DNA of 55,468 nt, counting the filler, from Stramenopiles sp. TOSAG23-6 (taxonomy: Eukaryota), in NCBI GenBank assembly GCA_900128565.1. It is 4 parts of 4 records of this genome, joined end to end, with 100 filler letters (N's around TTAATTAATTAA, not from the genome) between each part and the next. Parts side by side here need not be neighbours in the genome. Positions count along the whole stretch, not along the records: positions 27,881 to 41,640 come from LT636159.1; 3 more parts are not named here. One strand, 5' to 3'. A program made the position numbers and the translations under genes. Position 1 is the first letter of the stretch. Each line of letters begins with the position of its first letter. The notes beneath the pieces were generated by a model. The model saw only the letters and a list, made by a program, of their open reading frames with translations, did not search any database and was not told the origin of the DNA. This document shows positions 6,618 through 48,164 of this stretch, one piece after another.

Positions 6618-7023
6618 TTTTTTTTGGAAATATTTATTAGGTACAAAATTTCCTATGAAAAAAAGATAGATCTTACGAATTTATAACTAGCATACCAGAA
6701 AAATAGAAAACAATTCATTAGATAGAATAAACCAAATAAGTAAAAGTTGAATGTAAACTGGAACGAAACTGTTCATTTGTGTATTTCAAATACCTTTTTA
6801 TCTTGACGTAGATTTATTCAACATCAAACAAAATAAATATATAAACTAAATAAATACAACAAAAAAAAAACACGAAAGAATTTATTTTTTCGTGGATAAA
6901 TAGATGCAAAGCACAAATGTATTAGTATACCTGGTGCCATCATAGTAAGATTTATTTACAAAAAATGAATATTGGTCCCATATGCCAAGTTAACTATAAA
7001 TTTCTATAAAAAATATTGTAGCA

Positions 7024-8490
7024 TTAGATATATTTTAGAGATTCGTCAGTGTTTGATCTACGTCTATGAGAGCTAGCAGAAGCATGTATTTTGGAAAAAT
7101 ATTTCAAAAAAAATCGTTAGGTACAAAATTTCGTAGAAATTCAAATTTGAAAATGTACATGCTGCACTAAAGATCTTCTGTTTGGTTCGATATTAATTGG
7201 ACTACAGCTACGTAGCAAAGCTAATGATTCCGCACTAGAATTACTTGGGATAGGATAAGGGTTACTCAGTGCATTATTTGTAGAATGTAAAGTTTCATTA
7301 TTTCGGTTAAAGTTTAGTTGCAATAATTCTTCGTTGACTGGTTCCACACGCATGGAATGTAACGGGCCCATGTCATTGTTTGAATTATTTGTATTATTTG
7401 TATTTAGGGTAAATTGACTATTTTCTACTGTACTAGGGGCTCCAGAGTTTTCACTATTATATATATTATCAATATCATAATTATCATCATAATTTGGTCT
7501 TTTAAGGGATACTGCCATTGGCACAGTATCATAACTCTTATCGTGTTGGTACGTGTTAGGGTTAGGGTTATCGTGTTGGTACGTGTTAGGGTTAGGGTTA
7601 TCGTGTTGGTAAGTGTTATGAACGCTATCTGTATTTATTCTTGAGTGATCTTGATGATCATGAAAATCAGGAGCATCCTTAATATTTTTTGTAGGTACTA
7701 TTTGCACTTCAGCAGAATATCGGTTTTCTGCATTACGCAACTGATCCTTCTCAGTAGTCACAATGTGCTGATACACCGTACGCATCTCTTCTAACCATTT
7801 GTTTCTCTCTGCTTCGCTAGAACACTGCAACGCTAATTTTAACGGTCTTTGCCTATACTTAAGACCAATCATATGACCAAAGAAACCTGCCGGCTTATGT
7901 TCGAAGTCGACAAGCCCTGTCATTAAAATACAATAGGGTTTGTGAAAATATTGAAAACTTACCCGAGAGGCTCGAGTTTGTGACGTCATACGCAAAAAAC
8001 CACGGGGGATGTCGTCATAATCAGCAGTAACAGAATAAGTGAACACGCCATCAGGTCGAAGTCTAAAATAACGGCGTCTCCAATTTGTAAGTACCCTAGA
8101 ATGAACAGACTGTTTATTAAGCCAACCAGCGTGGCCCATTAGAACTTCTCCCTTTTTATTTACGACAAATCCTCTGGGAGAGTCTACTGCTACCGTTGAC
8201 GAAGCTTGCAATAATTCACCAATATCTGCAACATCTAAACGCAAATCAGCAGCCTCACGACGATATTTCGCTCGTTCAACTTCAAAAGCACTAAGTCGAC
8301 GATTTCTTGTTCTATTCACGACTGAATTACCGAGTCTGATTTTTGCCCTTTTGTCATTAGCTCCCTTATACACAACCTGAGCATAGTCACAAGTATCCAC
8401 AGTTCCAAAGTGGACTTTACGAGATGCAGACTTCCTACGCTTCATATGTCTTGTACCTAGTCCAACTATAGAAGACTTAATTGGCTTCAT
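7024..8490 (-). CDS. PH-domain protein; exons 8490-7159, 7083-7024
   Basis: HAGWLNKQS...NWRRRYFRL...SEAERNKWLEEM is a PH fold. The last exon is inferred from the family intron. Confidence 0.75.
7084..7158 (-). other. GT-AT family intron (75 nt)
   Basis: Minus strand CAG CAT|GTACATTTT...TACGAAATTTTGTACCTAAC...GAAATATTTTTCCAAAATACAT|GCT; contains an in-frame stop. Confidence 0.72.
7538..7611 (-). repeat. Coding 30-bp tandem repeat (HDNPNPNTYQ, ~2.5 copies)
   Basis: TTATCGTGTTGGTACGTGTTAGGGTTAGGG repeated on the + strand. Confidence 0.85.
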
Positions 8491-12900: not shown

Positions 12901-13823
12901 AATATTTTTTCAAAATACATAGTATCTCAAACGGATTTGGTTTTGGCGTTTTTAGAATTAGCAATTCCGACACTGACTGTCTGTATTTGTTGCGCGTATT
13001 CTTCTTTGAGGCATGATCGTAAACGTTTTATTCAACTAACTGAACTTTTGAATGAAGAGGATTATGTCAGAAAAAGAAGAGATAATGCGCAACGACTACT
13101 AGAGAAAATCCCGATACCATCTCATGTAATAAAAGACCTTAGAGCTGGACGTCCCATTTACACTGAAACATTTGCGACTGTTTCGTTTGCTGATATTGTC
13201 GGATTCACCAAATTTTCAGGTACAGTTACGGCAATACAACTTGTAAAAATACTGAATACAATGTTTTTAAAATTTGATAAACTTGCAAAACATCATAACG
13301 TGGAAAAGATTAAAACTATCGGAGATTGTTATGTGGCAGCTACTGGCTTATGGGAGGTGAAAGATAATCATACATTTAACTTTGATTCTCCTTGGTCTGA
13401 TGAATCCAATGCCGCGTTAGGATTTGAAATGAAAACGACTCGCTCCAACATAGCAAATCACGCCGTTTTAATGATTCGATTTTCTTTAGATATCCATCGT
13501 GTCATGTTGGCTCTTAATGCTGAGTTTGACTTGAACTTAGTGATTCGATCAGGAGTTCATACTGGACACGTCGTCGGTGGCGTCATTGGATCAAAACGTC
13601 TTGCCTTTGATATTTGGGGTGAAACTGTAGATTTGGCAAATGCTTTCGAAACTAAAGGTATTGGTGGTCGTGTTCATTGTAGTGAAGCTACACGAAATCG
13701 TGCTTCAACTGAATTTGTCTTTGAAAAAAGAAAAGAGCTTATTGAATTACATTTACCAGAAAGAGAACCAATTAAAATTACAGGATTTCTTGTCTTGTCA
13801 AGTAAATTTCCACTCCAGAATAT
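9930..13823 (+). CDS. Membrane class III nucleotidyl (probably adenylyl) cyclase with two catalytic domains; exons 9930-12751, 12921-13823; 3' end cut by contig end
   Basis: Two TM blocks, each followed by a cyclase domain (EKIKNIG...YDVFGDTVNLASRM; FADIVGFT...EKIKTIGDCY...FDIWGETV). Confidence 0.88.
12752..12920 (+). other. GT-AT family intron (169 nt) with duplicated branch-point block
   Basis: CAT AT|GTAC...TTTCGTACCTAAC (twice)...GAAATATTTTTTCAAAATACAT|A GTA. The AG two bases later would frameshift. Confidence 0.78.
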
Positions 13824-20460: not shown

Positions 20461-23400
20461 ATGGCTAAAACGGCAAAACAGAATAGAAAGAGTCGACCAA
20501 AGGGGCAGAATAGAAAACCTGTGCGTCGATTGCCAGAATCTATTATTGCACGTAAGAAAGCTGAAAGTGTGAGTCAACAAGCTGAACTCAGTCCAAGTTT
20601 AATGAACAGTTTGATGTCATCATCGACTACTAGCTATGGCACTATAAATGATACCACAGATTCTCCTAATAGTAATGGAACTATTCTGCTTTCTGTCAGT
20701 TCAAAGCGAAGTAAAAAAAAACCTCATGGGCAGAAAAAGCGTAAGTTTATTTCCCCAATAGAGAAACAGAAAAGAATGAAACAAGCCGCAAAAATGAGTA
20801 AAAAGAAACGTAGGAAACTTATTAAATTACAGGAGAAGAAAGAAGCCGATGCAAAACGTCTTGCGATTTACAAATCTCTTAGTGAAACGGCAATTAGTAC
20901 TGAAGAGCAAAAACTTTTGCTTCCTTCTGGAAATATTGGACAACTTGGTAGTAAACGTGAACGTGTTAAACGTGCTTTCCGGTTAAATAAAGCTGGTATT
21001 CCACTGACAAACGAAGAGACGGAGATTCTTCTAGTTAGAAATGATAAAGTTGGATCGAATTCGAGCAACTCATTTAAAGAAAAAAGCAACATATGTAGTG
21101 TTTCAAAGGAAACTATTTTTGATGGTAAAAAAAGACCGGATAATATTGAAAATTTCGCTTCGCAAAACGAAAGTATCAAAGATCAAAGTATAACTAAAGA
21201 AGAATGCAAAATTATTAAAGCTAAAACTGAAAGTGAAAAAGATTGCAATATTAGAGTGGCTGAATTGAAAAGTAAGAAAGAAGCAGCAAAGAAAGAGGCA
21301 TTACTCCTAAACCGCGCTAAAAACATAGCTATAATTAAAGCCCAGAAAAAAGAATTACACCGTGTACAGAATGCACCTACAACATGTGTTGTACATATTG
21401 ATCGCAACCCTGAAATCCAAGAACAGAGGCTAAAACTTCCTGTATGTGGAATTGAGCAAGAAATTATAGAATCTGTTCAAAACAATGATGTAATTATTCT
21501 ATGTGGTGCTACGGGCTCTGGTAAAACAACACAAACCCCTCAATTTCTTTATGAAGCAGGTTATTCAACAGCAGCTACAAAACGGGGTATGATTGGTGTG
21601 ACGCAACCACGTCGTGTAGCTGCTATGTCAATGGGTACAAGAGTGGCAGAAGAACTCAATACTCCTCTCGGTAAAAGAGGATTTGTATCGTATCACGTCC
21701 GTCATGATTCATCAGGAGTTCATGATGGTACTCGTATTAAATTTATGACAGAAGGTGTATGTTTTATTCTTTTTCAAATTCGAATTTTTTTTTCGTACGA
21801 CATTTTGTACCTAACGAATTTTTTTTGAAATATTTTTCCAAAAAACATATTCTACTGCAAGAAGGGTGCCGAGATTTACTATTAAAACAGTATAGTGCAA
21901 TTATAATTGATGAAGCTCATGAACGGAATTTGGATACAGATGTTTTGCTTGGCTTATTATCACGTGTCGTACCACTGCGAAGACAAATGTACGATGCAGG
22001 TGAAGTTTGTCCTGGTGAAAATTTCGTTTTACCACCACTTAAACTTATCATTATGAGTGCTACATTAAAAGTATCTGATTTTATCGATAATAAGCGATTA
22101 TTTTCGAAACCACCGCCTGTGATAAAAGCTGATTCGCGAAGACATCCAGTGACGATTCATTTCAATCGAAAAACTCCTTTGAATGACTATCTTAAAAAAG
22201 TTGTAAGTAAAGTTGGAGCTATACATAAAAAATTACCAGAGGGGACAATTGTTGTTTTTCTTCCTGGTCGAAAAGAAATTGAATGGGTTTGTAGAAAGTT
22301 AAGGCGAAAATATGGCCATCGAGCAAATATTGACTGCCAGATGTCAATGAGTGATGAAGATTCTTTTGATAGTGATATAAGTATGAGTGGTGGTGAAAGT
22401 GGTGATGATATTGAACCTGATCAAATGAGAACGCCAAATGAACACTCAAATGAAACATCTACAAGTAATTTGAATAGTGAAAAGATTGAAAATTCTATTG
22501 CAAACGCTGAGACTAATGTTGATGATGTAGATACCAGTCCGATAGATGATATTGTTGTTATTCCAGGGACAATTGAATCATCAAAGTCATCAGAATCAAT
22601 GGACGAGGAAAACAACGGATCTTTATTAGGACCATCAAAACCATCGACGATGCCTATGCATGTACTTCCAATGTACTCTATGCTTCCAAAACAAGCACAA
22701 ATGAAAGTATTTGAACCACCTCCACCTGGGCATCGATTAGTTGTTGTTGCCACAAATGTTGCAGAAAGTAGTATTACTATACCAAATACTGTATATATTG
22801 TTGACTCTGGACGTGAAAGAAACCGCGTGTATAACGCAACTTCTGGAATATCTACATTCGAAGTAAATTGGATATCAAAAGCATCAGCAGATCAACGTGC
22901 AGGTCGTGCAGGCCGTACTGGTCCAGGGCATGCATATCGGTTATATTCCTCAGCCGTTTTCAATGATTATTTTAAACTTTTTTCTCCTCCAGAAATTTTA
23001 GCAACACCATTGGAAGACGTTGTCATTCATTTAAAAAGACTTGGTATTCATCACGTGTCTGCTTTCCCTTTTCCATCAGCTCCACCCGTATCGAATATTC
23101 GACAAGCCTTAGTTGATTTATGGAATTTAGGATTGCTCAATATGGAAGGAGATTCGACATCAAATAGTCAAAAGTTCATAGATAATGTAAAGTATGAAAA
23201 CAATAGTACATCTAAAAACACATCAAATATTTCCAGTAGTATTAACAAAATGAATGAAGTATTAAACGAAGCGAAATCACTTCGTTCAAAACACTTAGTA
23301 AACAAGGTGGGAACAAAAAATCAAGTTTGTGGTGCAAATGATGATGTTATTCATCAAAGTCTTCAACTAGACTTTGCGAAACTAAAAGATGATGGCGAAT

Positions 23401-27880: not shown

Positions 27881-29614
27881 GCAATGTGTAAAGATAAATT
27901 GTTTCTTCAAGACACAGTTGAAAGTGCCTCAGCAAAGGTCGGCGGTTTATCATCAGAGTTACGTGTAGAGGCTCTTGCCTTAGCTCGTAAATTGAATCCC
28001 GGCTTAAAAATGTGGACAAAGACCGATTGGGATCACCGTCGAAAGGTAAAGGAAGCAATGGAGAAACATGGTAATGAGATCAACTCACCTTGGATTGAAG
28101 TTTATGATCCCGGAGAAAAAAGTTTTTATTATTGGCATCAAGAAACACACGAGACAACATGGGAGCAACCAAAGGGATACAAAATGTCATGTGATGACTC
28201 AATTATGAGTTCTGCAATACGAATTCAAAACTTTTGGAGAATAGTTTTAGCTCGAATTCGTACCAAAATAAGAAAGACAGTATTTGATATGAATGTGACT
28301 AAGACCGCATTGATTGAACAGATTTCGGCGAGTAGAACAAGACAACACAAAAATGAAGAGATTATTTGTGATTGGGTAGAATCATTTGACTCTGAAAATG
28401 ATGCATATTATTACTACAATTATGCTACAGGAATGACAGTTTGGGACAAGCCCTCTGATTATGTGATGGCAGCAGATGACTTACTGTTTAAATCTGTCAT
28501 AAAACTACAATGTGCATATCGTTCTCGATGTGCTTATCGCAAATTTCATAGAAAGAAAATGAATCACACATTCTTAGAAAAAATAGCAACAGAAAAGTCG
28601 TTGAGACTCTCAGAAATATCAGCAGAAGCAACATCATATGCTGATATGTTATCAGATGAATTAGTAACTGTCGTTGTTGGACCCGGACAATTAGGTTTGC
28701 AAATGAAAGCTGGGTCTGATGGTTGTGGAGTTATTGTGAAAGGATTTGTCCTTACTAAAGCAAAAACGTTTTCCCGAGCAGGTGTTACCATTGGTATGAA
28801 ATTAGTGAGGGTAAATGGTCGAAATGTCGCATTGTCTGCATTTGGCGAAGTTTTAGATTACTTTAAGAAACATGCAGCGGACCCAAAACGTTTAGTATTT
28901 TGCTCAGCGGAAAAAGATGTTATTGAAATTGCCAACGAAATGGATTCGCTAAGAGAGCTTTGGGCAGCCAGAAGAATTCGTAGAATATGGAACCAGCGCA
29001 AAGCCAACAAAGCGTATAATGAAGAAAAGTTGAATAGATTAATTGAGATCGAGCTGAACACCGAAGCTGTTTTGATTGTTGTACCAACTGGGGAGCGTCT
29101 TGGTGTGGTTCTTGCTCCTTGTCCACAATCACATAGTAAAAATAATACAAAAAAATCGAATATTCCAATCGAAGCATGTGTCAAAGAATTTATCGCTGTT
29201 GGCAGGTCACATGATGGAAAAGCTATCATGGGGTCCATTCAAAGACATGGAGATGTATGTTTTATTTTTTTTTCAATTTCGAATATTTTTTTTTCGTACG
29301 AAATTTTGTACCTAACAAGTTTTACATTTTTTTTTTTTTTTTTCACAAAACATGTACAACTTGGAATGAAGCTCAGCAGTATCAATGGTGTTAGTACATT
29401 GGGTATGCCAACTGCTGATATTTTTGTAGCATTGCGCAAAGCTAGTAATTATTCACAATTTAATCAAGTGGGAACATATTTAGTATTTGGTGAAAAGAAT
29501 AGTAATGATCTTCGATTAGAAGCTGCTAATTTCATCAATTCACAACTTCGAAAACAATCTAGATCTTTTAAAAATGCTACATCGAAGTTGAAATATATTC
29601 TCCGCAAACCTTAG
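27881..29614 (+). CDS. WW / IQ / PDZ-like multidomain protein (5' truncated); intron 29255-29353
   Basis: Two WW domains (W...YYWHQETHETTWEQP; YYYNYATGMTVWDKP), IQ-like IQNFWR/LQCAYR, and PDZ-like GQLGL...GMKLVRVNG. Confidence 0.78.
   Translation, partial: AMCKDKLFLQDTVESASAKVGGLSSELRVEALALARKLNPGLKMWTKTDWDHRRKVKEAMEKHGNEINSPWIEVYDPGEKSFYYWHQETHETTWEQPKGYKMSCDDSIMSSAIRIQNFWRIVLARIRTKIRKTVFDMNVTKTALIEQISASRTRQHKNEEIICDWVESFDSENDAYYYYNYATGMTVWDKPSDYVMAADDLLFKSVIKLQCAYRSRCAYRKFHRKKMNHTFLEKIATEKSLRLSEISAEATSYADMLSDELVTVVVGPGQLGLQMKAGSDGCGVIVKGFVLTKAKTFSRAGVTIGMKLVRVNGRNVALSAFGEVLDYFKKHAADPKRLVFCSAEKDVIEIANEMDSLRELWAARRIRRIWNQRKANKAYNEEKLNRLIEIELNTEAVLIVVPTGERLGVVLAPCPQSHSKNNTKKSNIPIEACVKEFIAVGRSHDGKAIMGSIQRHGDVCFIFFSISNIFFSYEILYLTSFTFFFFFFTKHVQLGMKLSSINGVSTLGMPTADIFVALRKASNYSQFNQVGTYLVFGEKNSNDLRLEAANFINSQLRKQSRSFKNATSKLKYILRKP
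29255..29353 (+). other. GT-AT family intron (99 nt, in-frame, stop-free)
   Basis: GGA GAT|GTATGT...TTTCGTACGAAATTTTGTACCTAAC...CACAAAACAT|GTA CAA; removal gives PDZ-like GDVQLGMKLSSING. Confidence 0.8.
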
Positions 29615-29784
29615 TTAGTTAGTATTTGACTTATATTTGATTTATTCATTTAAATAAGTAAGTTATAACATACAAATAAACGCATATATAAATATAAGCT
29701 TTTTTATATTAACAATAGTGTGTGCCTTATTTACACGTATTATGTAAAGTAAAATATTGTACGAAAAAAATTAAAAATCTCAAA

Positions 29785-30789
29785 TCATTCATTATCAACT
29801 TTCAATTGATCGGGTGATGCTTCGTTGACAAGAGCTCGAGACAACGCAAACATCGGGTCAATGTATTTTGGAAAAATATTTCAAAAAAAAAAAAACTAAA
29901 ATTTGTTAGGTACAAAATTTCGTACGAAAAAAATAAATTCGAAATTGAAAAAAAATAAAACATACATGAGTGGAACATCAAATAATTCCTTTTCAGGTAA
30001 AGCAATTGGGATTTCAGTGCAACCTAAAATAATAACTTCTGCACCCATATCTTTCAAATCATTTACGCAGTTAACAAATATATTTCGTGCTTTTTTTGTG
30101 ACGGGAAATGTTGCTTTTACACCCCATTCTGGATTATAAATTGCGTCATGTAATGTAGATTGCGCATCATTGGAGACTTCAATGAATTGAAATTCACAAA
30201 GTGTATCAGGGTATACATTTGATAAACGAGTACCACTGGTTGACATTAATCCAACTTTTTTTGTTTTTGGAGAAACTTTGCGAATGAAGTTTGCAGTTTC
30301 ATCAATCATGTGCAACAATTTAACGTTTGGTAAAGTGGATATTTTTTCTTTAAAAGGATCCCATATCACCGATGCATGAAATGTGTTACATGGTACACCT
30401 ATAACAACGTGATTACTTCTATTTGTAACATTACTATTTACCGCAGAAAATATTGAATTAACTACTTCAAACATTGCATCACCAGGATTTTCCAAGTCTT
30501 CTCCTTTCTTCTGTGTGATAAAATTTGTACGGTCTGGAATTATGCGAGATTTAGATAAATGAAATATATCGAGATGCCCTTGATCACCGCCTCCAAGAGT
30601 TAACGTGTTTTCTATTATCATTTTGTGTAAAAGGCAACCAGCCATTGGGCCGACACCTCCGGCTATACCAATTGCAGACTGAGCAGCCGAAGTCGCAATA
30701 GTATTCCGAATATTCCTTTGAAACAAATCATTCTTCCCAATGTAGCACATACGATGCATAATGCGACGATATAGTATTGGAACGATCAT
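29785..30789 (-). CDS. PLP-independent aspartate/glutamate racemase family protein; exons 30789-29966, 29860-29785
   Basis: IGIAGGVGP, IPDRT, PCNTFH and LGCTEIP catalytic cysteines; spliced C-terminus VPLIDP. Confidence 0.88.
29861..29965 (-). other. GT-AT family intron (105 nt)
   Basis: Minus strand CTC AT|GTATGT...core...GAAATATTTTTCCAAAATACAT|T GAC CCG. Confidence 0.83.
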
Positions 30790-31420: not shown

Positions 31421-31611
31421 ATGTATTTTAGAAAAATATTTCAAAAAAAAATCATTAGGTACAAAATTTCGTACGAAAAATAAATTCGAAATTGAAAAAA
31501 AATTTCGTATGAAAAAAATAAATTCGAAATTGGTAAAACGTTCAATTTTGAAAAAAAATCTAAAAAAATTTCTTAGGTACAAAATTTCGTACGAAAAAAA
31601 TTAAAACATAC
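31421..31611 (-). other. GT-AT family intron (191 nt) containing two core motifs
   Basis: CTC AT|GTATGT...GTACCTAAG...GTACCTAAT...TTCTAAAATACAT|G; possibly a chimeric assembly of two copies. Confidence 0.6.
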
Positions 31612-32396: not shown

Positions 32397-32585
32397 TTNG
32401 ACCGAGAAAAAAAAAATTTTTTGGCACAAACCTGGAAAATGAGGATATATATAGTCAGCGGCTGTCGGATCCATCTACTACGCCTACCTATATACAGCTA
32501 AAGGCGGTTGTAGATATATACTAACCAACAAACCAATTTACAAAGGCGATTTGTTATAATTGGAACGGGTATAGATATCTCAGAA

Positions 32586-35411
32586 ATGGTTAAACACAAA
32601 ACTAATCTCGAGAATCCATGGGATGGTGAGGACTGGCAATCTGTTGATGTCACTATGGAAACAGCCATGTCTTGGAGTGAAGGGGGATTTCTCGGTCTTG
32701 AAGTTTTAGATGGCAGCACTGTTGAAGTAAAGAAGGGTAAAGGTGGAGTATGCACGATCAAATCCCGTAGGCCAAAGAAAACAAGTAAGCGTAAGCGTAA
32801 GAACACAAGCAAATCAATGTCTTTTGATTTGTCTTCAAAAAGTACGACAATTCCGAAAGACTATGCAACAGGAAAGCCATCGTTGTCAAAAGATGTAGAA
32901 GAATCTCCTTTGATAACTCGTCCTTCAACTATCGACAGTAAGGAGGAATTACGCTCTATAGATGCCCAGATAGCTTTTCTCGAAGCGAAAAAAATTGATG
33001 CTCAGATCAAAGCGTTACAGGCAAAGAAATATTCGCTCACTAAAAGGATAACAGTGACAACTAATTCAGCAAATTCTGAGTCTGAGCCTAATCCTAACAC
33101 TCAGAAAGAAAAGTGTAATAATGTAAATAGTACAACAGTATCAAGTGAAAAGAAGAAGAAGAAACGCAAACGTGACCGAAGTAAAGAACGAGCAGCACGG
33201 AAACGCCGCAAGGCATCTGGAATTACAGTAGCTGAAGAGCGAAAATTATTGAAAAAGAATTTATCTGGTACTGTTCAGAAAAATACGAGAAACAATTCGT
33301 TAGGTACGGAATTTCGTACGAAAAATCATTGTGACATGAGTGCGTGGGAATCTCTTAATCTTCACTCAGATCTTATAGCTAATTTGCAAAAATTAGGTTT
33401 CGATACCCCAACTCCGATACAACTTAAATGTATTGCTGCTGCTGTAACGACAGGCAAAGATGTTCTTGGTGCTGCTGAAACAGGATCCGGTAAAACTCTT
33501 GCGTTTTCATTACCGATTCTTGTACGTTTTAATCTTGAATTTCGAATTTCAATTTTTTTTTCATACGAAATTTCGTACCTAACAAATATTTTTTCTTAAA
33601 ATTGTTTTTTCACAATACATCATCGTTTATTAGAAGAACGTGACATTTTTGAAGCAAAACGAGCACGAGATACTATGGATGGTATTGTAGAACAAGAACA
33701 ACAATCTGAAGATACACGTCTTCGATGTTTGATCATTTGCCCTACTAGAGAACTTGCACTTCAGGTAACCCGTCATATTATAAAAGTATCATGTGATACT
33801 GGTATTAATGTTATGGCTCTTGTAGGTGGTATGGCACAAGTGAAACAGGATCGATTACTTGCGAAACGTCCTGAGATTATTGTTGGAACTCCTGGACGTT
33901 TATGGCAATTAATGAGAGATGGTCAAGAGCATTTAAATGATCTTTCAGCAGTTAATTTTCTAGCAATAGACGAAGCGGATCGAATGGCATCTCCTGGAAG
34001 TTATCCAGAATTAAAAATGATTTTTGAAAAATTGAAAAAATCAGATGAATTAGTTGAATCAGGATCAATGTTTAGTAGAAAGGCGCAAATGTTTAATGAT
34101 CTCGCTGATTTTGATGACGATGTAGTGAATTTGTCTGAGGATGATGAAGATGACATTGTATCTAGTGATGTGAATGATGATGTAAATGAAGAAGAAAATC
34201 GTACAAATTCATTACCAATGAATGCTGTTTCTCCAAATACTCAAAAACAAAAGAAACAATTAAAGAAACAAGGTCGAAGATATAGTAGAGTACATCGCCA
34301 AGTACTTCTCTTTTCAGCAACTTTAACAATTGGTCAAGAAGGACGTGAACAACGAAAAAGTAACAAAAACAATAATCAAAATGTACAAAACTCTGGTAGT
34401 ATTGATAAGAATATTTATTCTTTAGCTCTTCTTTGTGGTTGTGGCAAATTTTCTACACCTGCAATCATTGATGTTACTACGGCATCTACAAAAACACCAT
34501 CCAAGACTGAAATAATTCAATATGGGAAAAAAAAATCTCAATTTTCACTTCCTGATGGTCTTGAACTTTGTCAAATATTTTGTTCGGATGATGAGAAAGA
34601 TGCATATCTTTATTATTTTTTTTCAGAATATGCTGGGAGGACACTTATTTTTGTGAATGCTATATCACATGTAAAACGATTAACTGTTTTATTACAACTT
34701 TTGAAACTTCCTGCGTACTCTTTACATGCAAAAATGCAGCAACGTGCGCGCCTTAAAAATCTTGATCGATTTCGTGCAGAAAAAAATACTATCTTAGTTG
34801 CGACTGACGTTGCTGCTCGTGGATTAGATATTCCTTTAGTGGAACATGTTGTTAATTATCATTTGCCACGATCTACTGAATTATTCGTTCATCGTAGTGG
34901 ACGTACAGCTAGAGCAAATACAGAAGGAATTAGTATTTCGCTTGTGGCAGCACAGGAACAATCTCTATATAGAACAACATGTAATGTTTTAGGAATGCCT
35001 CAAGGTCTTGCTGCGTTCCCTGTAGATTTGTCTTCTATGAAACAATTACACACTCGTTGTAATATAGCCAAAAAATTAGCAATTTTACAAGTAAAACTTT
35101 CTAAAAAAAAAAGTAAAAATAATTGGTTAATTCAAGCTGCAAGGGACGCTGATATTGTTATGGATGAAAATCTTCGACACGAAATGTCTAATAATGGTTC
35201 TGATGAAAAACGTCAAAAAGTTTTAGTTGCTCAATTAGCAGCGGAAATGAATAGACCTTTACTTGGTCGAGTCAGAGGAGGGATGTTGAAGGTTAAGGTA
35301 GCACATGCCGAAGCAAGTACAAAAAAGAAAAGATCTCAGGAAAAAGCGAAACTAACACGAAAAGCAGCAAGCGATCTCCGATATTCCGGTTCAATGAATG
35401 GATTTAACTGA
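32586..35411 (+). CDS. DDX24: DEAD-box RNA helicase DDX24/Mak5; exons 32586-33521, 33621-35411
   Basis: [10 protein letters not shown]-terminal motif, [46 protein letters not shown]. Confidence 0.92.
33522..33620 (+). other. GT-AT family intron (99 nt)
   Basis: ATT CTT|GTACGT...TTTCGTACCTAAC...CACAATACAT|CAT CGT; contains a stop and no AG; no upstream AT, so an AT-AC reading is impossible. Confidence 0.85.
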
Positions 35412-35563
35412 TATAAATTTAATAAAGAAGAAAAATAAAAATAAAGATTTACTCGCAAACAGAATTGAAACTTAATGTACAATGTCTCTCAACGTCAACA
35501 ACAAAACAGCACCCAATCTCAATCGAGTTCTCTTACATCATTCCTGTGATAATTTTATTTTTA

Positions 35564-38920: not shown

Positions 38921-38953
38921 TATAAACTTTTCTTTGTAGACTTTTTTTAAATC

Positions 38954-39081: not shown

Positions 39082-41002
39082 TTTCTTCAAAACGTCTACG
39101 AACTTCACTTATCCACTCAGGCATTGATGATGACTGTTTCGTTTTCCCCCATTCATGTATTGAATGATATGTAGTTTCTTCTTTACTAGTTTTGACATTT
39201 TTTATTTTTCGTTGATTTAGTTTTATATTTTGATTTTGATTTGATTTTCGATCTTTTTTATTTTCCTCATTTGCTTTTTGATTACATTGAATTACATTTT
39301 GCTTAATATTTTCCTGACACTGATTTTCTTTAGTACAACCTTCTTTCATAGAAGATACTTCAAATGCTGGTTTTTGCTTTATTAAACTATGCTTCACTTT
39401 TTTTGGAATGGTGAATTCTTCTGGATTTTCTGCATTGGCTTTCAAACAAAGATTCCCAAAACAACCATTAGGAAAACTGTTCATACTATTATTATTATCA
39501 TTCTTTTTCACAGAATCATTTTGTTGCTTTTTATTAATTTCGATAGCATCCAAACTATTTAGAACTGATGGTTCATGATCAGTAACTGTTGGTAGAACTG
39601 AATTTACTTTCTTCTCTATTTGTTTTTCTAGGTGATTTAGTCTCATTTTTATCAAAGTAAAAGAGTCATTTTGCTGAGAAGCAGGTTTGCTCACAATGTT
39701 GTTGCGTTCCACTTTATTCATTCTTCCTTCTAACAATAGCATTCTAGCCGATAAAGTTTCCGCCACGTCTTTCATTTGTTTTGCAATTTCTGCAACTTGA
39801 CGAGTTATACTTTCCAAGACGAAGACATTTTGTATATTTTGTGTATTTTCTTCGTTTTGTGTATTTTGTGTATTTTGTATATTTTGTGTATCTTGTATAT
39901 TTAGTGTATTTTGTATATTTTGTGTATTTAGTGTATTTTGTATATTTTGTGTATTATGCGTGTTTTGTATATTTTGTGCATTGTGTATGTTTATTTTGTT
40001 TGTATATGTATTCTCCTCTTCTTTTTCTTTCTGTGGTACAACCGTCAGATCCAGAGGGGTAAAACTTGACGAATTTGAATCCGTACTACATTTCGAACCT
40101 AATGAATTTCGACTTTGCTGAGTGTCACCTTCTTTATTATTATCCTCTTGGACGAGCTGTTCAGGTTTATTCTCCAATGTATAACATACTCTATTTTCTT
40201 GAATTATATTAGATGTATTATCAGTTGCATAACGATTATTTGAAGAGTCATCAAAATTAATACTTTGCTGAAGCGGGCTAGGGTTAGGGTTAGTCATCGT
40301 TTTTTTCTGAAGCATTTCCTTATAAATACTCTGCTGTAGCGTAGGCTGCTTAACTTTTTCATCGACTCGTCGTTTCATCCATAACTTATCAGAAGATAAT
40401 CTTGCCTCTGCACGAAAGACTGCGGAGTTTGTTGCAGCGCGACCACTCTCTCGCTTTCCTTTCAAAGCATTCCGTCGATTCAATACAACTTTTTGTTTTT
40501 CTGTGATAAGTTTACCTTCCTTTACAGCTTTTACAGCCGCAATGCGTTGAGCCCTTCTTACATTTACATCAGTGGTATCCAATTTTCTGTCTTTTCTGGG
40601 TCTCTGAATATTCTTTAGTTTACGTTGACGCTCAGTGTGCTTTTGAAAACACAAATCAATGCACTCACAAAGAAAGATTATTTTCTGTTCTACAAAACCA
40701 TTGGAAAGTAATTGTTGCGAGGTTAGCCGAAGCCGATGATTAAAACTTCGCTGTATTACACGGAGGATTCCACTCACAAAATCTGAATCTGTCTTTGCAT
40801 ACAGGTCGAAACCACTATCAGTAATTAATCTAGCGACATGGCGTGAATAGTCAAGAAAAATATAGTGTAATAGGGGGAGAAAAGACTTTGGGTCACCAAG
40901 AGATAGAGATTCAAAAGAGATTTCACGAGGATACGCTATTCGCTTTAATTGCCCCTTTAATTTGATGAAATTGTTCTGCATGTCACCTGTAGAGTGTAAC
41001 AT
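39050..41002 (-). CDS. CEP44: Centrosomal protein CEP44-like
   Basis: TGDMQNN...LKRIAYP...GDPKSFLPLLHY.FLDYS...DLYAKTD..FV; internal NTQNIQ repeat at ~39826-39985. Confidence 0.82.
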   Translation of the reverse strand: MLHSTGDMQNNFIKLKGQLKRIAYPREISFESLSLGDPKSFLPLLHYIFLDYSRHVARLITDSGFDLYAKTDSDFVSGILRVIQRSFNHRLRLTSQQLLSNGFVEQKIIFLCECIDLCFQKHTERQRKLKNIQRPRKDRKLDTTDVNVRRAQRIAAVKAVKEGKLITEKQKVVLNRRNALKGKRESGRAATNSAVFRAEARLSSDKLWMKRRVDEKVKQPTLQQSIYKEMLQKKTMTNPNPSPLQQSINFDDSSNNRYATDNTSNIIQENRVCYTLENKPEQLVQEDNNKEGDTQQSRNSLGSKCSTDSNSSSFTPLDLTVVPQKEKEEENTYTNKINIHNAQNIQNTHNTQNIQNTLNTQNIQNTLNIQDTQNIQNTQNTQNEENTQNIQNVFVLESITRQVAEIAKQMKDVAETLSARMLLLEGRMNKVERNNIVSKPASQQNDSFTLIKMRLNHLEKQIEKKVNSVLPTVTDHEPSVLNSLDAIEINKKQQNDSVKKNDNNNSMNSFPNGCFGNLCLKANAENPEEFTIPKKVKHSLIKQKPAFEVSSMKEGCTKENQCQENIKQNVIQCNQKANEENKKDRKSNQNQNIKLNQRKIKNVKTSKEETTYHSIHEWGKTKQSSSMPEWISEVRRRFEETSSSLLQRKE

Positions 41003-41485: not shown

Positions 41486-41574
41486 ATGTAAAGAAATATT
41501 TGAAATTATAAATTTGTTAGGTACAAAATTTGGTGCGAAAAAAATTAAAATTAAAATTCATGATGAAAATGTAC
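41486..41574 (-). other. GT-AT family intron-like unit (89 nt), directly preceded by the 3' part of another copy (41575-41640)
   Basis: Minus strand GCCAT|GTACATTTT...AAATTTTGTACCTAAC...AAATATTTCTTTACAT|GG CAT. Confidence 0.6.
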
Positions 41575-42052: not shown

Positions 42053-43288
42053 ATGCGCAGAGATGTGCTTTTATCTTGGGCATTATTGTTTGGAGTAAAT
42101 ATTATAGGGAATTTCATACTGATTCCTATAAATATGAATTTGCTTCTGCAGGCATTTTTAACTATTTACATTGGTGCGCATGATTCTTTATTAAACGTTG
42201 AGGAGGAAAATCTGACGATGGAGGATGCTGGTATGTTTCCTGTATTTGGATCTTTCATGTTGTTGTCTCTATATGTTGTATTTAAGCTATTTGACAAGGA
42301 ATATGTCAATATGCTTCTACTGGCATATTTTATTATGGTGGGTACATTTGCTCTTGCCAGTGCTATTTCACCATTAGTAAGATGTCTCCTCGGAAAGGAA
42401 ACCCAGAAGGAGAAAAAAACCAAGAAGGAGAAAAAAACAAATGGATCTAATCCTAACGCTTTATTCTGTGTAACAATCCCTCTTCCTAAATTTGTAGACG
42501 ATAAACCTTTGGTTATTTCTCCGGACTTTTCTCAAATTATTGCTTTTCTACTTGCTACCATCAACGCTACAGTATACCTAAAAACCAAACACTGGTGTGC
42601 CAACAATATTTTTGGATGTGTCTTTTCATTATCCGCAATCAAGCAAATTAAACTGGGTAGCTACAAAATTGGGTGCCTCCTTCTCATTGGACTATTTTTT
42701 TATGACATATTCTGGGTTTTTGGGACTGATGTGATGGTCACTGTAGCAAAATCGTTTGACGCACCCATTAAACTTCTCTTTCCCCGTGAGTTCGCCACAA
42801 TAGATACGAAAATGCAATTCTCAATGCTCGGTCTTGGTGATATCGTGATGCCTGGTATATTTCTTGCACTATTACTTCGATTTGATTTCAAAAAATCTCA
42901 GAAAGGAGAGATAGACTGTGTTGACTTGTCTGTTCGAGAAACGGCAACGTTTACTAAAACCTATTTTAACATTGGTATGATCTTTTATACATTGGGTTTA
43001 AGTACAACAGTTTTTGTTATGTATACATTTAAAGCTGCCCAGCCAGCTTTATTATATTTGGTACCTGCTTGTCTCTTATCGTCTTTCCTCCCAGCGTACG
43101 TTTTAGTTTTTTCAATTTATATCTAAATTTGTTTTTCGTACGAAATTTCGTACCTAACAAAACAAATTTNAAAAAAAAATATTTTTTCACAATTTATGTT
43201 ATTCTTTGGAGAAATTGGAAAACTTTTTGCATATGAAGACTTAACTATTGTCGTCCCAGAGGAAGACAAAAAGAAAAAGGATAATTAA
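42053..43288 (+). CDS. HM13: Signal peptide peptidase; exons 42053-43095, 43198-43288
   Basis: YDIFWVF, LGLGD and QPALLYLVP motifs; spliced tail PALFFGEIGKLFAYED...KKKKDN. Confidence 0.92.
43096..43197 (+). other. GT-AT family intron (102 nt)
   Basis: CCA GC|GTACGT...TTTCGTACGAAATTTCGTACCTAAC...CACAATTTAT|G TTA; contains a stop. Confidence 0.8.
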
Positions 43289-44816: not shown

Positions 44817-45934
44817 ATGATGACCGCATTAAGAAGGCGCATTTGTCATTTTTATTCGGGAATGACTAATCAACGTACATTATCTTCACTATCGTCTGGA
44901 AATTCTGGTCACGTATGTGTAAATGGTATAGACTTGCATTTTGTGAAAAGTGGCCCACCAGATCCGTTATGCATAGATGATAATCCAATCATTTGTATGC
45001 CTGGAGCTTTAGGAACTGCAGCCACAGATTTTTCTCCCCAGTTAGACAACATAAATGGCCTTGCAAATTCGCATGATGTTATTTCGTTCGATCCTCGGGG
45101 ATATGGAAAATCTAGACCTCCTGTTCGTGATTTCCCCCTTGATTTTTATCACAGGGATGCAGATGATGCTGCTGAGCTCATGAACGTTCTTGGCCACAAA
45201 AAATATACAGTAATGGGTTGGAGTGATGGTGCAATTAGTGCTGTCATCCATGCAGCTCGACATCCTGATCGTGTGAGGAGTTTAATAATATTTGGAGGTA
45301 ACGCCTTTTTTACAGCTGATGATATTGCTGCTTTCGAAGCAACTCGGGATGTTGAAAAATCGTGGAGTTCACGGATGAAAGACACACATACTCCTGTGTA
45401 TGGTTCTGACTTGCAGGACATGTGGTCAGGTGCATGTGATGCATGGGCTCGAATTCTTCATGAACTTGATGGGAATATGTACGCTTTTTAAATTAAATTT
45501 AAAATTGTTTTTTCGAAGAAAACAATTGAATTAAAAATATTTTTCACTAACAAAAAAATTGAACTAAAAATATTTTTCACAATATATCTGCGTCGATGAA
45601 GCACGATCTCTCCAATGTCCTACGTTAATTCTACACGGTGCGAAAGATCCACTTTGTCTTCAGACCCATGCAGAGTGGTTTCTAGACAATATTCCAAATT
45701 CACAATTGAAAATATTTCCTGATGGGAAGCATGTATGAATTATTTTTTTTCAAATTCGATTTTTTTTCGTACGAAAATTTGTACCTAACAAATTTTAGTT
45801 TTTTTTTTTTTTTGAAATATTTTTCCAAAATACATAATCTTCATTTACGTTTTGCTGATGATTTTAATAAAATGGTATCTGAATTTATCAAAAGTGTATA
45901 TATAGAAAAAGAGAAACAAACAGTAAACTTGTAA
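44817..45934 (+). CDS. BPHL: Valacyclovir hydrolase/BPHL-like alpha/beta hydrolase; exons 44817-45478, 45588-45732, 45836-45934
   Basis: PGALG, DPRGYGKSRPP, GWSDG nucleophile; spliced DGNI|C...CPTLILHGAKDP...GKH|NLHLRFADDFN. Confidence 0.9.
45479..45587 (+). other. GT-AT intron (109 nt, divergent family member)
   Basis: AAT AT|GTACGC...CACTAAC...AAATATTTTTCACAATATAT|C TGC. Confidence 0.8.
45733..45835 (+). other. GT-AT family intron (103 nt)
   Basis: AAG CAT|GTATGA...core...GAAATATTTTTCCAAAATACAT|AAT CTT. The internal TAG would add 37 nt and frameshift. Confidence 0.85.
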
Positions 45935-45997: not shown

Positions 45998-48164
45998 TCA
46001 CTTTTGAAAAGATGCGGGATTTTTTTCGTCTAAACCTTTCAATGGACATTTTCCTTCTTTTTCGCCATGAAATTGTTCAGTATTGCCACAAGTCCAACAA
46101 TAACGAGATTTACTACTTTCATTATCTATCTCGGGGTTATCACTACAGCTATTTTTATCTATATGTTTTCTATCTAAGACAATCACAGCGCTTGTACTAG
46201 CCCAACCAATACAATGGTCTACCATATAAGCAACACGAGGAATATAATATGAACCTACGGGAAGTTTTCGTTTCTTTTGTTTTCTCGATCGTTTCTTTAT
46301 ACCTTTTCCTTTTAAAGTAGTACTATTCGTAGGAGCATCATCACCAATTAATTCAGATTTTGCAATTTCTATTTCAATATTACTATCAACATGTTGACAT
46401 TTGCTGGTGAGTGTCTTTTTGAAATCATCAGTTTTTTGTTTCTTCTTTGGGGGTAATACATCCAAATCATCAGAATTACTATTGTCTATTTCAGTATTTA
46501 CTTTTTGATTTTGAAATGGTGAAGGCACACAAAGTGATGTCAAATCGTGTACCATTGTATTATGTGATGCAGCAACTTGTTGAGGAAAGTCGCCTCTACC
46601 CCAAATACCAGAAGTCTCAGAGATATATATAATTTTATCTACATACTCACAGGAGCGAAGTGCGTCGACAATATTTTCAGGTATTTTAGAACTACAAATT
46701 CCATTTTGACCTTTACACTGCAAAATGACAATATTTTGTGTTTTCTTGATTCCATTAGTAGCTTTTAATTTGTTTTTCTTTGCTGCTTCCTCAAATAAAT
46801 ACAAATTTTGAATAATAGAAGAGGGGTTGCCAACTTCTATACTATTCAAAGAGTCAGAATATCCATTTTTTTTGACGAATGAAGAAAATTGACTAGAATC
46901 AATAATAAAGTTTTCTCTGTAGTGAATATGCATGTTTGATACACTATTCGTAGTACTATCAGTATTTTCATTACTATTTAATATTGCACGATTAATTGTA
47001 CCAAAAAGATTCGATATACTCTGATCTCGCGATACATTCAAATCATCACAATTTCGTAAGTTTTCATCTTTGATGATATTATTTACAGGCTGAATTGGAC
47101 AACAGACTGAACCCCTTTGTATACTTTTAAGCCAATGTGGTAATCCAGTGGCGCAGCTATCCAAACCCAAAAGAGAAATTGATGCGAATGTATTTTGGGA
47201 AATATGTCAAAAAATGTTTTTGTTAGCTACAAAATTTGTACAAAATTTGGTACAAAATCGAAATTTGAAATGAATAATAAAACATACACCTAAGTCGTCT
47301 GACGACTCTCCTAAGTGCCGATGCAACACCAATCAGTTTCAGTGAACGTTGTAATTTGATAGAAACTTTCCTCCAATCATTTTTATCAAATTTTGAAGTA
47401 TCTTGATCTACACGTGCAGGGTAGCCACCCTCCAATAAAATGCCACATGGACCTGAAACTTTTGCTGCGCGGATTTTTTTTTCCGAAGCATTAACAACAA
47501 GCTCATATTCAACTCTTTCAGATTGACGTAATTGACGAAAATGGGTAGGTTTGCATAAAAGAGCACTTTGGTGGACAAATATTTCGTCGCCACCATCATC
47601 GGGTTGAATGAAACCCATGCCTTTCTTTCTATTAAACCAGAGAACAGACCCTCGAAATTTGCCGAATATTGTGTGCCACAGAGGGCAAAACTCCACAACA
47701 TGCCTCCCATGTTGTGCTGAGACACATCCTTTACAATTGCATGGTGTGTCTAATATTCGTACGTATACTGCGTCACAGGATATGTAGAAAAATCCTGGTC
47801 TGTAATCAGCATAACCTTCCGGACGATTATTGTGCACTGAGTACACACCAGGAGGTGGGTTAGGGCGATCAGAAACACTACATTTCTGTCGATATAGCTT
47901 AACACCCGAAGGAGACCATAATTCGTCGTAATATTTTCTTTTATGGAACTCTGTAAAAGAATGCTCCTCTATTTGGTCTTTCTTGAATTCAAAGTAAGGA
48001 CCGTGATCGCCTAGCAACACTCTCTCGTAACCTCTAGCCAATATATTTCCTCCAAAATCAGAGAAAAATACATCCGGTGAACCTTCCTCGGTGACACAAA
48101 GCTTTGACTGCACTAAAAAAAGATCGCGAATTCTATTCTCAAGGCCAATACAAGTAGAAGTCAT
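45998..48164 (-). CDS. Cold-shock-domain protein with unknown N- and C-terminal domains; exons 48164-47288, 47187-45998
   Basis: CSD FRGSVLWFNRKKGMGFIQPDDGGDEIFVHQS; removing the intron joins two ORFs in frame (RLR-F-ASISLLGLDS). Confidence 0.75.
47188..47287 (-). other. GT-AT family intron (100 nt)
   Basis: Minus strand AGG T|GTATGT...TTTTGTAGCTAAC...TTTCCCAAAATACAT|TC GCA. Confidence 0.78.

What the first reader, a model, noticed from the sequence alone, without database searches (positions are those of the whole stretch)
29861..29965. The GT-AT introns look like an introner/MITE: terminal inverted repeats, AT target duplication, palindromic core
Seen: unrelated genes share a near-identical intron body: GTATGTTTT, AATTTCGAAT, the 12-bp palindrome TTTCGTACGAAA, TTTTGTACCTAAC, a T run, then GAAATATTTTTCCAAAATACAT. 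The 5' junction AT|GTATgTTTT is the inverted complement of the 3' end AAAATACAT. In 10 of 14 visible donors the upstream exon ends in AT. Established: introners in algae are DNA transposons that co-opt a target-site duplication as a splice site. Inference: an element GTAT..ATAC inserts at AT, and the duplicated AT serves as the acceptor, giving scarless splicing. End-to-end pairing may help choose the 3' site, because several ATs and some AGs after the branch point are skipped.
Basis: partly seen in the sequence, partly recalled or inferred. Interest (0 to 1): 0.85.

Follow-up and report, generated by a model that had tools for sequence, protein, structure and literature searches.

The report
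Repeated GT-AT introns, likely transposon-derived
In this uncultured marine protist genome every intron we could see is a copy of one roughly 100-base repeated element that is cut out at GT...AT instead of the near-universal GT...AG, which points to introns made by a mobile element and to splicing machinery that accepts an unusual end.

Summary
Window 29861-29965 (minus strand) is a 105-nt intron, GTATGTTTT...TTTCGTACGAAA...GTACCTAAC...T-run...CCAAAATACAT. A poly(A) metatranscriptome contig joins 29860 to 29966 with no mismatch. Homologues read straight across the junction.

I found 13 introns of this architecture in 55 kb, on both strands and in unrelated genes. All 13 end in AT. Two of them exclude the AT-AC reading. 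Similarity spans the whole body: mean 75% identity, and 92-95% for three copies. In a seawater DNA run the intron cores reach about 10^3-10^4 times the flank depth.

The upstream exon ends in AT in 9 of 13 copies, against a 9-11% background. The exon base at -3 repeats the intron's -3 base in 8 of 10 AT-flanked copies. This fits a 2-3 bp target duplication that supplies the acceptor.

The inverted termini are only GTAT/ATAC. Anything longer is no better than shuffled sequence. RNA folds are weak. No transposase was seen.

Two antisense copies lie inside coding exons, and there are nested or tandem copies. Both favour insertion at the DNA level.

Public gene models of near-identical sequence force GT-AG at these sites. 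I found no paper describing this.

Verdict: an introner-like family with a non-AG acceptor, a new variant of a known kind.

The parts
29861..29965 (-). The intron of the finding (105 nt, GT...AT), in an Asp/Glu-racemase gene
   Evidence: RNA contig X6 record 16 covers 29761-29860 and 29966-30055 with 0 mismatches. The spliced product reads ...DVPL-I-DPMFALSRALV, as homologues do. Pfam Asp_Glu_race.
29957..29965 (-). 5' splice site GTATGTTTT, preceded by exon ...CAT (29966-29968)
29937..29947 (-). Conserved block CAATTTCGAAT (TTCGAA palindrome)
29918..29929 (.). 12-bp perfect palindrome TTTCGTACGAAA
29905..29913 (-). Putative branch-site motif GTACCTAAC, 45 nt before the 3' end
   Evidence: The branch point itself was not mapped.
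29896..29897 (-). AG of a TTTTAG that is passed over as acceptor
   Evidence: Sequence. The RNA contig uses 29861 instead.
29861..29882 (-). 3' block GAAATATTTTTCCAAAATACAT ending in the AT acceptor
21757..21848 (+). Family intron in DHX37/Dhr1-like helicase. Exon ends GGT, so the AT-AC reading is impossible.
   Evidence: Exon 1's last residue aligns to 6o16_A residue 172 and exon 2's first residue to 173.
33522..33620 (+). Family intron in DDX24-like helicase. Exon ends CTT.
   Evidence: Relative P0003 reads LPILHRLLEE, which equals exon 1 end plus exon 2 start.
45733..45835 (+). Family intron, 95% identical to 29861-29965
   Evidence: Frame kept. Identity.
45479..45587 (+). Divergent family intron in the same gene as 45733-45835 (AT|GTACGC...CACTAAC...CACAATATAT|)
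   Evidence: Frame kept.
29255..29353 (+). Family intron in a WW-domain gene
31421..31611 (-). Composite of two damaged tandem copies (191 nt). Removing it as GT...AT leaves the frame off by one.
7084..7158 (-). Family intron (75 nt) in a PH-domain gene
12752..12920 (+). Family intron with an internal tandem duplication, between two cyclase domains
43096..43197 (+). Family intron in a signal-peptide-peptidase gene. Ends TTTAT; exon ends GC.
47188..47287 (-). Family intron. Exon ends GGT.
2839..2950 (+). Family intron in a TPR-DnaJ gene. Ends AAAT; exon ends AAT.
41486..41574 (-). Family intron directly abutting the 3' end (...GCCAT) of another copy at 41575-41647, which is cut by the contig end
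33274..33326 (-). Antisense copy of the core inside the coding exon of the plus-strand DDX24-like gene, read as ...[13 protein letters not shown]...
   Evidence: nhmmer E 6.7e-9. Translation. Same residues in model P0001.
40073..40122 (+). Weaker antisense copy inside the coding ORF of the minus-strand CEP44-domain gene
   Evidence: nhmmer E 1.7e-6. ORF 39050-41092.
6609..6686 (-). Decayed copy outside any intron, between convergent genes. A 16-bp direct repeat, ATAAATTCGTAAGATC, brackets its core and 3' part.

Best explanation
The 105-nt stretch is one member of a very large family of introner-like elements of about 75-190 nt. This family supplies all the spliceosomal introns visible in this genome fragment, which comes from an uncultured marine stramenopile.

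Shown:
- The repeat unit's edges are the intron edges.
- The spliceosome cuts at a yeast-like donor GTAYGT and at a terminal ...ACAT. It passes over earlier ATs and, in some copies, a well-placed TTTTAG.
- The mRNA is restored exactly.

Inferred:
- The element begins GTAT and ends ATAC or ATA. It inserted as DNA at (C)AT sites and duplicated 2-3 bp.
- The upstream copy of the duplication stays in the exon. The downstream copy became the last bases of the intron.
- Only insertions at ...AT could be spliced out without a scar, so only they survived in coding sequence.
- Copies inserted antisense survive only where they keep an open frame.
- The host's second-step and 3'-site recognition must tolerate, or now prefer, U at the last intron position. 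The conserved T-run plus C(C/A)AAAT-ACAT block probably marks the site.
For: Splicing:
- RNA contig joining 29860 to 29966, 190 of 190 bases matching.
- Codon-exact junctions against homologues for 29861, 21757 and 33522. The last two have non-AT exon ends, which fixes GT-AT.
- Frame is kept across 11 of 12 testable introns.
- All 13 introns end in AT. No GT-AG intron was needed to join any pair of long ORFs.

Family:
- Alignment over the full length.
- Identity 60-95% over 66 pairs, and 92-95% among copies in racemase, helicase and hydrolase genes.
- In DNA run X3 the depth at place 31454 is about 111,000, against 5-15 in the surrounding bins without a copy.

Duplication:
- AT precedes the donor in 9 of 13 window copies and 11 of 15 overall.
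- In X3, 37 contigs of other copies leave the reference just after the shared AT and 21 just after CAT. On the 3' side 23 leave exactly at 29861.
- Exon -3 equals intron -3 in 8 of 10 AT-flanked copies. This includes the two copies whose intron ends AAT or TAT (sequences).

DNA-level insertion:
- Two antisense copies in coding exons.
- One extra-intronic copy.
- Abutting, tandem or composite copies at 41486/41575, 31421 and 12752.
Against: - The inverted termini are only GTAT/ATAC. In 0 of 13 copies does the inverted match beat shuffled arms.
- No transposase domain in the 30 ORFs scanned, and no longer element with these ends was seen.
- AT before the donor could equally be an exon-side splice or pairing signal. 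A to G at exon -2 in 3 copies keeps a G-U pair with the last U.
- In X3 only about 36% (21 of 58) of AT-sharing contigs also share the C, which is less than a clean 3-bp duplication predicts.
- The composite intron 31421-31611 fails the frame test by one base.
- Only one spliced RNA contig was listed. Contigs cannot show how often the AG is used.
- Presence/absence among strains or species was not tested.
- The copy number sums all organisms in the run.
Confidence: 0.6

Rival explanations
1. Same family and same GT-AT splicing, but it spread through RNA. Excised introns reverse-spliced into transcripts, or were retroposed, and entered the genome by reverse transcription and recombination. The AT before the donor is then a preference of the splicing machinery or of 5'-3' pairing, not a duplication.
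For: - The terminal helix (exon -2 to +3 with intron -1 to -5) can form in 10-11 of 12 copies, and G at exon -2 keeps a wobble pair.
- It closes 7 of 9 minimum-energy folds.
- The extra-intronic copy at 6609-6686 has a 16-bp direct repeat bracketing its core and 3' part, and an A-rich end. This looks more like retroposition than a 2-bp cut-and-paste.
- The inverted repeats are too short to prove a transposase.
Against: - Antisense copies sit inside coding exons of two genes, which reverse splicing into sense transcripts would not give.
- Exon -3 copies the intron's deviant -3 base in 2 of 2 deviant cases. This is a direct repeat, not a pairing.
- +4 T to C is uncompensated in 5 copies.
- The folds are not more stable than shuffles.
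Confidence: 0.15
2. These are introns of a transformed minor (U12-like) spliceosome that has expanded, as in Physarum. GT-AT ends are tolerated because the minor system is lax at the last base.
For: - GT-AT is a recognised minority boundary of U12-type introns: 17% of non-canonical U12-type introns in Physarum, where a transposon with a TA duplication was also proposed (passages of 10.1101/2020.10.12.336362).
- The donor is conserved to +9 (GTAYRTTTT), resembling RTATC[C/T]TTT at 7 of 9 positions.
- ACCTAAC resembles TCCTTAAC.
Against: - Positions +5 and +6 are G/A and T rather than CC or CT.
- The branch-like motif lies 31-47 nt from the 3' end, not the roughly 9-12 nt reported for the U12-type branch motif.
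- GTATGT plus CTAAC is the classic major-type pair.
- No snRNA genes are in the window, so this was not tested directly.
Confidence: 0.1
3. No mobility. These are old introns kept alike by strict splicing requirements or by gene conversion.
For: All 13 introns share the motifs, so a strict requirement cannot be separated from common descent using 55 kb alone.
Against: - Spacer segments and two palindromes that are not known splice signals are conserved. Copies in unrelated genes are up to 95% identical.
- Fragments occur outside introns and in antisense.
- Tandem and nested copies exist.
- Gene models of relatives at 52-56% identity read straight across 2 of 2 tested positions.
Confidence: 0.07

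Closest known systems
Introners / introner elements (Micromonas, Aureococcus, dinoflagellates and others)
   Same: - Thousands of near-identical short introns in unrelated genes.
- Unit edges equal intron edges.
- One splice site is carried by the element and the other is made from a short target duplication. The 3-bp case of Micromonas IE1 is described in passages of the review PMC11282704.
- Aquatic host.
   Different: - The acceptor is AT, not AG.
- The inverted termini are at most 4-6 nt.
- In this sample the family accounts for every intron seen.
- The host is a heterotrophic MAST-type stramenopile not named in the introner surveys I searched.
Non-canonical MITE-derived introns of the tunicate Fritillaria borealis (AG-AC, AG-AT)
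   Same: A non-AG acceptor created from an exonic repeat. There it is TAC before the intron (review PMC11282704, passages). The host spliceosome has adapted to odd ends.
   Different: Here the donor (GTAYGT) and a strong branch motif are canonical, and only the last base departs. There is one dominant family rather than many diverse ones.
Expanded U12-type introns of Physarum polycephalum
   Same: GT-AT occurs. A transposon with inverted ends and a 2-bp duplication was proposed as the source.
   Different: The donor and the branch-site spacing here are not of U12 type.
Non-conventional introns of euglenids and hemistasiid diplonemids
   Same: The intron ends can pair and bring the splice sites together (abstract of PMC12621601; review).
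   Different: Those lack conserved borders, a pyrimidine tract and a branch motif. Here the borders and motifs are highly conserved and the pairing is only 5-6 weak pairs.

Membership tests
Introner (transposon-derived intron family) | Many sequence-similar introns in unrelated genes | tested here: met
   13 introns in 55 kb. Identity 60-95% over the full length. Depth about 10^3-10^4 times the flanks in a DNA metagenome.
Introner (transposon-derived intron family) | The repeat unit is removed precisely by splicing | tested here: met
   RNA contig for 29861-29965. Codon-exact junctions for three introns. Frame kept in 11 of 12 testable introns.
Introner (transposon-derived intron family) | Target-site duplication at the junctions | tested here: inconclusive
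   AT repeat in 11 of 15 copies. Third base matches in 8 of 10. Only about 36% of AT-sharing metagenome contigs also share the C. A splice-signal reading is not excluded.
Introner (transposon-derived intron family) | Recent or lineage-specific gain (positions not shared, or polymorphic) | tested here: inconclusive
   Models of relatives at 52-56% identity read seamlessly across 2 of 2 positions. Their genomic DNA was not seen and no polymorphism test was possible.
MITE (non-autonomous DNA transposon) | Terminal inverted repeats of about 10 bp or more | tested here: not met
   Only GTAT/ATAC. The extension is not above shuffles in 0 of 13 copies.
MITE (non-autonomous DNA transposon) | Copies in both orientations and outside genes; an autonomous partner exists | tested here: inconclusive
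   Two antisense exonic copies and one to two intergenic fragments. No transposase in the 30 ORFs scanned. The whole genome is not held.
U12-type (minor) intron | Donor RTATCCTT | tested here: not met
   The consensus is GTA[T/C][G/A]TTTT.
U12-type (minor) intron | Branch motif TCCTTAAC about 10-15 nt from the 3' end | tested here: not met
   ACCTAAC lies 31-47 nt from the end.
U12-type (minor) intron | Dependence on U11, U12, U4atac and U6atac | not testable with these tools
   No snRNA in the window. No genome held.
Major (U2-type) spliceosomal intron | GT donor, CTRAY branch motif, pyrimidine tract | tested here: met
   GTAYRT, CCTAAC or CACTAAC, and a T-run in all 13.
Major (U2-type) spliceosomal intron | AG acceptor | tested here: not met
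   13 of 13 end in AT. The TTTTAG in 29861-29965 is skipped in the RNA contig.

The most novel reading that the evidence does not exclude
In this MAST-type stramenopile lineage the whole intron complement has been replaced or created by one mobile element. The major spliceosome has been retuned so that the standard 3' splice site is ...ACAU rather than AG, and AG is ignored. This would be a genome-wide change of the near-universal acceptor rule while the canonical donor and branch site are kept, driven by a transposon whose target duplication is AT.
Probability: 0.4. Interest if true: 0.9.

Novelty: new variant of a known kind. Interest (0 to 1): 0.8.

Why it matters
Transposon-made introns are the leading explanation for bursts of intron gain. 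Almost all known cases keep the AG acceptor. A family with a canonical donor and branch site but a U at the last intron base would have several consequences:

- It would show how far the second catalytic step and 3'-site recognition can drift when a mobile element imposes its own ends.
- It gives a natural system in which to ask which factor (a U2AF35-like protein, Prp8, Slu7, Prp18 or RNA pairing) reads the acceptor.
- Public gene models for this abundant group of ocean grazers appear to be systematically wrong at these sites. The DHX37-like model loses the conserved ILLQEG segment.
- Annotation-based introner surveys would be blind to the family.

Tried and rejected
- **Whole genome:** none is held.
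- **AT-AC reading:** this shifts the borders by 2. It is possible only where the exon ends in AT, and is rejected by 21757 and 33522. TG-CA (shift by 1) fits formally but has no rationale.
- **More copies from collections:**
  - Metagenome contigs gave only two loci. L001 is chimeric after the intron core; L002 is a clean copy.
  - Viral contigs gave 0 hits for two patterns.
  - Genome contigs gave two bacterial chance 21-mers with no wider similarity.
- **snRNAs:** Rfam found nothing in the window.
- **Strict regex scans for further introns:** they recovered only some known members plus in-ORF false positives.
- **An in-frame alternative for the composite intron:** a donor inside the palindrome (31421-31592) is in frame but implausible.
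- **'Sister lineage' comparison:** models labelled GSMAST32 proved to be of near-identical sequence (blocks 97-100% identical). They say nothing about conservation between species.
- **DNA-level intron-less alleles in run X3:** only 15 of 118 joints were listed, none of them a clean 105-nt skip. This is no evidence either way.
- **RNA cover of the other introns:** no spliced contig was listed for them. Again no evidence either way.
- **Literature searches:**
  - 'GT-AT introns' found 0 papers.
  - GT-AT + intron + spliceosom found 20 papers, none on protist-wide GT-AT.
  - MAST, introner and stramenopile searches found none linking the two.
  - Supplements were not read.

Full report
**What is at the coordinates.** On the minus strand, 29965 down to 29861 reads GTATGTTTT, A, T8, CAATTTCGAAT, TTATTTT, TTTCGTACGAAA, TTTT, GTACCTAAC, AAATTTTAG, T13, GAAATATTTTTCCAAAATACAT. 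The exon ...CTCAT lies before it and TGACCC after it. The window is AT-rich (31-40% G+C). It consists of several contigs joined by N-linkers. The named motifs are strongly over-represented:
- TTTCGTACGAAA: 10 hits at up to 1 mismatch, against 0.26 expected.
- GTACCTAAC: 25 hits against 6.5 expected.
- The 3' block: 13 hits against 5.5 expected.

A profile grown from this one intron finds 21 places at E <= 1e-3. It finds none in the reversed window even at E <= 10.

**It is an intron, and its borders are GT...AT.** The flanking ORF is an Asp/Glu racemase. Removing 29861-29965 gives ...LFDVPL-I-DPMFALSRALVNEA...stop. Bacterial, archaeal and protist homologues read ...VPL(I/V)DPM.AL.RALV... without a gap at that point. 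An ORF-style protein of the window itself runs on into the intron instead.

Logan contigs of four runs were laid on 27881-41640. One contig of a poly(A) metatranscriptome (X6, record 16, 190 nt) covers 29761-29860 and 29966-30055 with no mismatch. Because the exon also ends in AT, this junction alone could be read as AT-AC. Two other members settle it:
- In the DHX37/Dhr1-like helicase the exon ends ...GAAGGT. The last residue before 21757 aligns to residue 172 of PDB chain 6o16_A and the first residue after 21848 aligns to residue 173. Three other chains agree.
- In the DDX24-like helicase the exon ends ...ATTCTT. A relative (P0003, 56% identical) reads LPILHRLLEE, exactly exon end plus exon start.

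For these two only GT-AT fits, or formally TG-CA.

**How many, and are there other kinds of intron.** I defined 13 introns of this architecture: 2839-2950, 7084-7158, 12752-12920, 21757-21848, 29255-29353, 29861-29965, 31421-31611, 33522-33620, 41486-41574, 43096-43197, 45479-45587, 45733-45835 and 47188-47287.
- Removing each as GT...AT keeps a long open frame across the junction in 11 of 12 testable cases.
- The exception is the 191-nt composite 31421-31611, which is off by one base.
- 41486-41574 lies at a gene's 5' end and could not be tested.
- All 13 end in AT: ACAT in 10, and TTAT, AAAT and ATAT once each.
- Donors are GTATGT (6), GTATGA (1), GTACGT (2), GTACGC (1), GTACAT (2) and GTACNT (1).
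- Every place where two long same-strand ORFs needed joining was explained by a member of this family. I found no case that needed a GT-AG intron.
- Two frame breaks remain unexplained and are listed under things noticed.
- Between the branch-like motif and the 3' end (31-47 nt), 1-6 ATs are passed over in all 12 copies counted. An AG is passed over in 4 of 12. In 29861-29965 and 45733-45835 this is a TTTTAG whose AG lies 9-10 nt past the branch-site A.

**One family, not just shared signals.** Twelve sequences align along their full length. Two of the twelve are the 3' halves of duplicated introns. Pairwise identity over 66 pairs averages 75% and ranges from 60% to 95%. The copies in the racemase, helicase and hydrolase genes are 92-95% alike. 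Conserved blocks include two palindromes and a 22-nt 3' block that are not known splice signals.

In DNA run X3 the unique flanks have word depth of about 6-8. Bins containing family members behave very differently:
- 27,918 in the bin holding 29861-29965.
- About 111,000 at one core position.
- Depth falls for the more divergent members, to 240 in the bin with 41486-41574.

This suggests about 10^3-10^4 copies close to the consensus. Depth sums all organisms in the sample, so it is an order of magnitude only. The density in the window, about one copy per 3-4 kb, fits that order.

**Flanks.**
- AT precedes the donor in 8 of 12 copies (p = 2e-6 against 9.4% overall; 11% before other GTAYRT hexamers).
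- With 45479-45587 this is 9 of 13. With the two metagenome copies it is 11 of 15.
- The base before the donor is T in 12 of 13.
- In X3, contigs carrying other copies leave the reference just after the shared AT (37 contigs) or just after CAT (21 contigs). On the other side they leave exactly at the last intron base (23 contigs). No larger class of departure at the donor itself was listed, but the table shows only the best-supported rows.
- Reading the sequences, the exon base at -3 equals the intron base at -3 in 8 of 10 AT-flanked copies whose two ends are both seen. This includes both copies whose intron does not end in CAT (2839-2950: AAT and AAT; 45479-45587: TAT and TAT).
- The match drops to 2 of 8 at -4.

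That is the pattern of a 2-3 bp direct repeat. The metagenome ratio (21 of 58 sharing the C) is lower than a clean 3-bp duplication would give.

**Inverted ends and pairing.** AT|GTAT is the reverse complement of ATAC|AT. Beyond those bases, the anchored inverted match of the first and last 25 nt is not better than shuffled arms in any of the 13 copies (fraction of shuffles at least as good: 0.24-1.0).

As RNA, exon -2 to intron +3 can pair with intron -1 to -5 in 10-11 of 12 copies. G at exon -2 keeps a wobble pair. The T-to-C change at +4 in 5 copies is not compensated.

This helix closes 7 of 9 minimum-energy folds. The folds are not more stable than shuffles (z from -0.11 to -1.75). End pairing is therefore possible but unproven, and the 'TIR' is minimal.

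**Copies that are not introns.**
- A 53-nt core copy lies antisense inside the coding exon of the DDX24-like gene (33274-33326, E 6.7e-9). It is translated in frame as ...[13 protein letters not shown]....
- A weaker copy lies antisense inside the CEP44-domain ORF (40073-40122, E 1.7e-6).
- A decayed copy sits between convergent genes (6609-6686). A 16-bp direct repeat that includes the neighbour's stop codon brackets its core and 3' part.
- A core fragment is intergenic (1370-1400).
- 41486-41574 directly abuts the ...GCCAT end of another copy.
- 31421-31611 is two damaged copies in tandem, and 12752-12920 has an internal duplication.

Antisense and nested copies argue for insertion as DNA. 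The 16-bp repeat leaves room for another route.

**Whose genome, and is it known.** The best protein hits carry the EukProt label GSMAST32. After those come unnamed gene models at 52-56% identity, and then oomycetes at about 38-45%. The best DNA holders are small 2015 runs and seawater metagenomes. So this is an uncultured marine stramenopile of the MAST kind.

The GSMAST32 models match the window at 97-100% in intact blocks, so they describe essentially this genome. They deviate exactly at the introns:
- MTEGVWCRDLLL instead of MTEG|ILLQEGCRDLLL. This is what a forced GT-AG choice (GTAT|GT...AAGAAG|) gives.
- LPILVP(KRA)RDTMDG instead of [12 protein letters not shown]....

On the literature:
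- Passages of the single-cell genomics paper on these lineages mention introns only in its methods (PMC5778133).
- The Incisomonas paper has no occurrence of intron or splice (PMC12614181).
- The two introner surveys contain no MAST or stramenopile term. One states that it accepted AG and AC acceptors (PMC9860276 and PMC12130899, term searches).
- A phrase search for GT-AT introns found nothing. A broader search found only rare U12-type or artefactual cases.

I did not see supplements, which could list species or families.

**Mechanism.** I think it most likely (0.6) that a short element with ends GTAT...ATA(C) spread by DNA insertion at (C)AT. The duplicated AT then serves as acceptor, so that splicing is scarless. 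This is the logic described for Micromonas IE1 (3-bp duplication) and for Fritillaria, where an exonic TAC makes the AC acceptor (review PMC11282704, passages).
- Shown: family membership, borders, GT-AT use, and AT enrichment.
- Inferred: the duplication, the DNA route, and the adaptation of the spliceosome.

Rivals are an RNA-mediated spread (0.15), a transformed minor spliceosome as in Physarum (0.1), and no mobility at all (0.07). For the minor-spliceosome rival, the donor at +5/+6 and the 31-47 nt branch spacing do not fit, but no snRNA could be examined.

**Limits.**
- 55 kb, 13 introns and one listed spliced contig.
- Counts at -3 were made by eye from printed sequences.
- Copy number comes from summed contig depth.
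- Relatives were compared only through their predicted proteins.
- TSD sizes of transposon superfamilies, yeast-like signal names and second-step structural details are recalled, not tested.

Noticed in passing
20386-24929 (+) and 32514-35411 (+): Public gene models labelled GSMAST32 (P0001, P0002, P0121) match the window at 97-100% in intact blocks. At the GT-AT introns they replace true exon sequence with forced GT-AG joins, for example losing ILLQEG in the DHX37-like helicase.
   Followed up: partly
36372-36405 (-): Removing these 34 nt would complete a MYND zinc finger (C..W-DI-HKLC). The stretch has no family similarity and no GT donor, though it ends in AT. RNA contig X8 record 26 runs 18 nt into it unspliced. 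It could be a tiny odd intron, an assembly error or a decayed domain.
   Followed up: partly
54926-54944 (-): A tandem duplication of about 19 nt breaks the frame between a 2153-codon ORF and the ORF upstream of it. It is either an amplification or assembly artefact, or a real small insertion.
   Followed up: no
1-130 and 1200-1420: A different repeat occurs at least twice in gene-poor DNA (CACCGCGC.CAGAT...TTTTTTGAAGATTAAG...GGGGTCTGAAATTT). It lies next to fragments of the intron core.
   Followed up: no
29790-30822 (-): The best named relatives of the intron-bearing racemase are bacterial and archaeal (47-50% identity), alongside a few protist transcripts. If the gene came by transfer, its intron must have been gained afterwards. 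No tree was built.
   Followed up: no
29255-29353 (+): This 99-nt family intron is in frame and free of stops, so retaining it would add 33 residues rather than truncate the protein.
   Followed up: no
L002 about 2700-2830 (opposite strand to the family copy): A second interruption in a related metagenome contig starts GTACGT and has GTACCTAAT. It could end either at CACAG or at CACTAT; both are in frame. Whether relatives also use AG is open.
   Followed up: partly
31421-31611 (-): The gene carrying the composite intron matches only the N-terminal part of DNA-PKcs (Pfam E 1e-6) and has no room for the rest. It may be a fragment or pseudogene, which could explain the frame failure.
   Followed up: no
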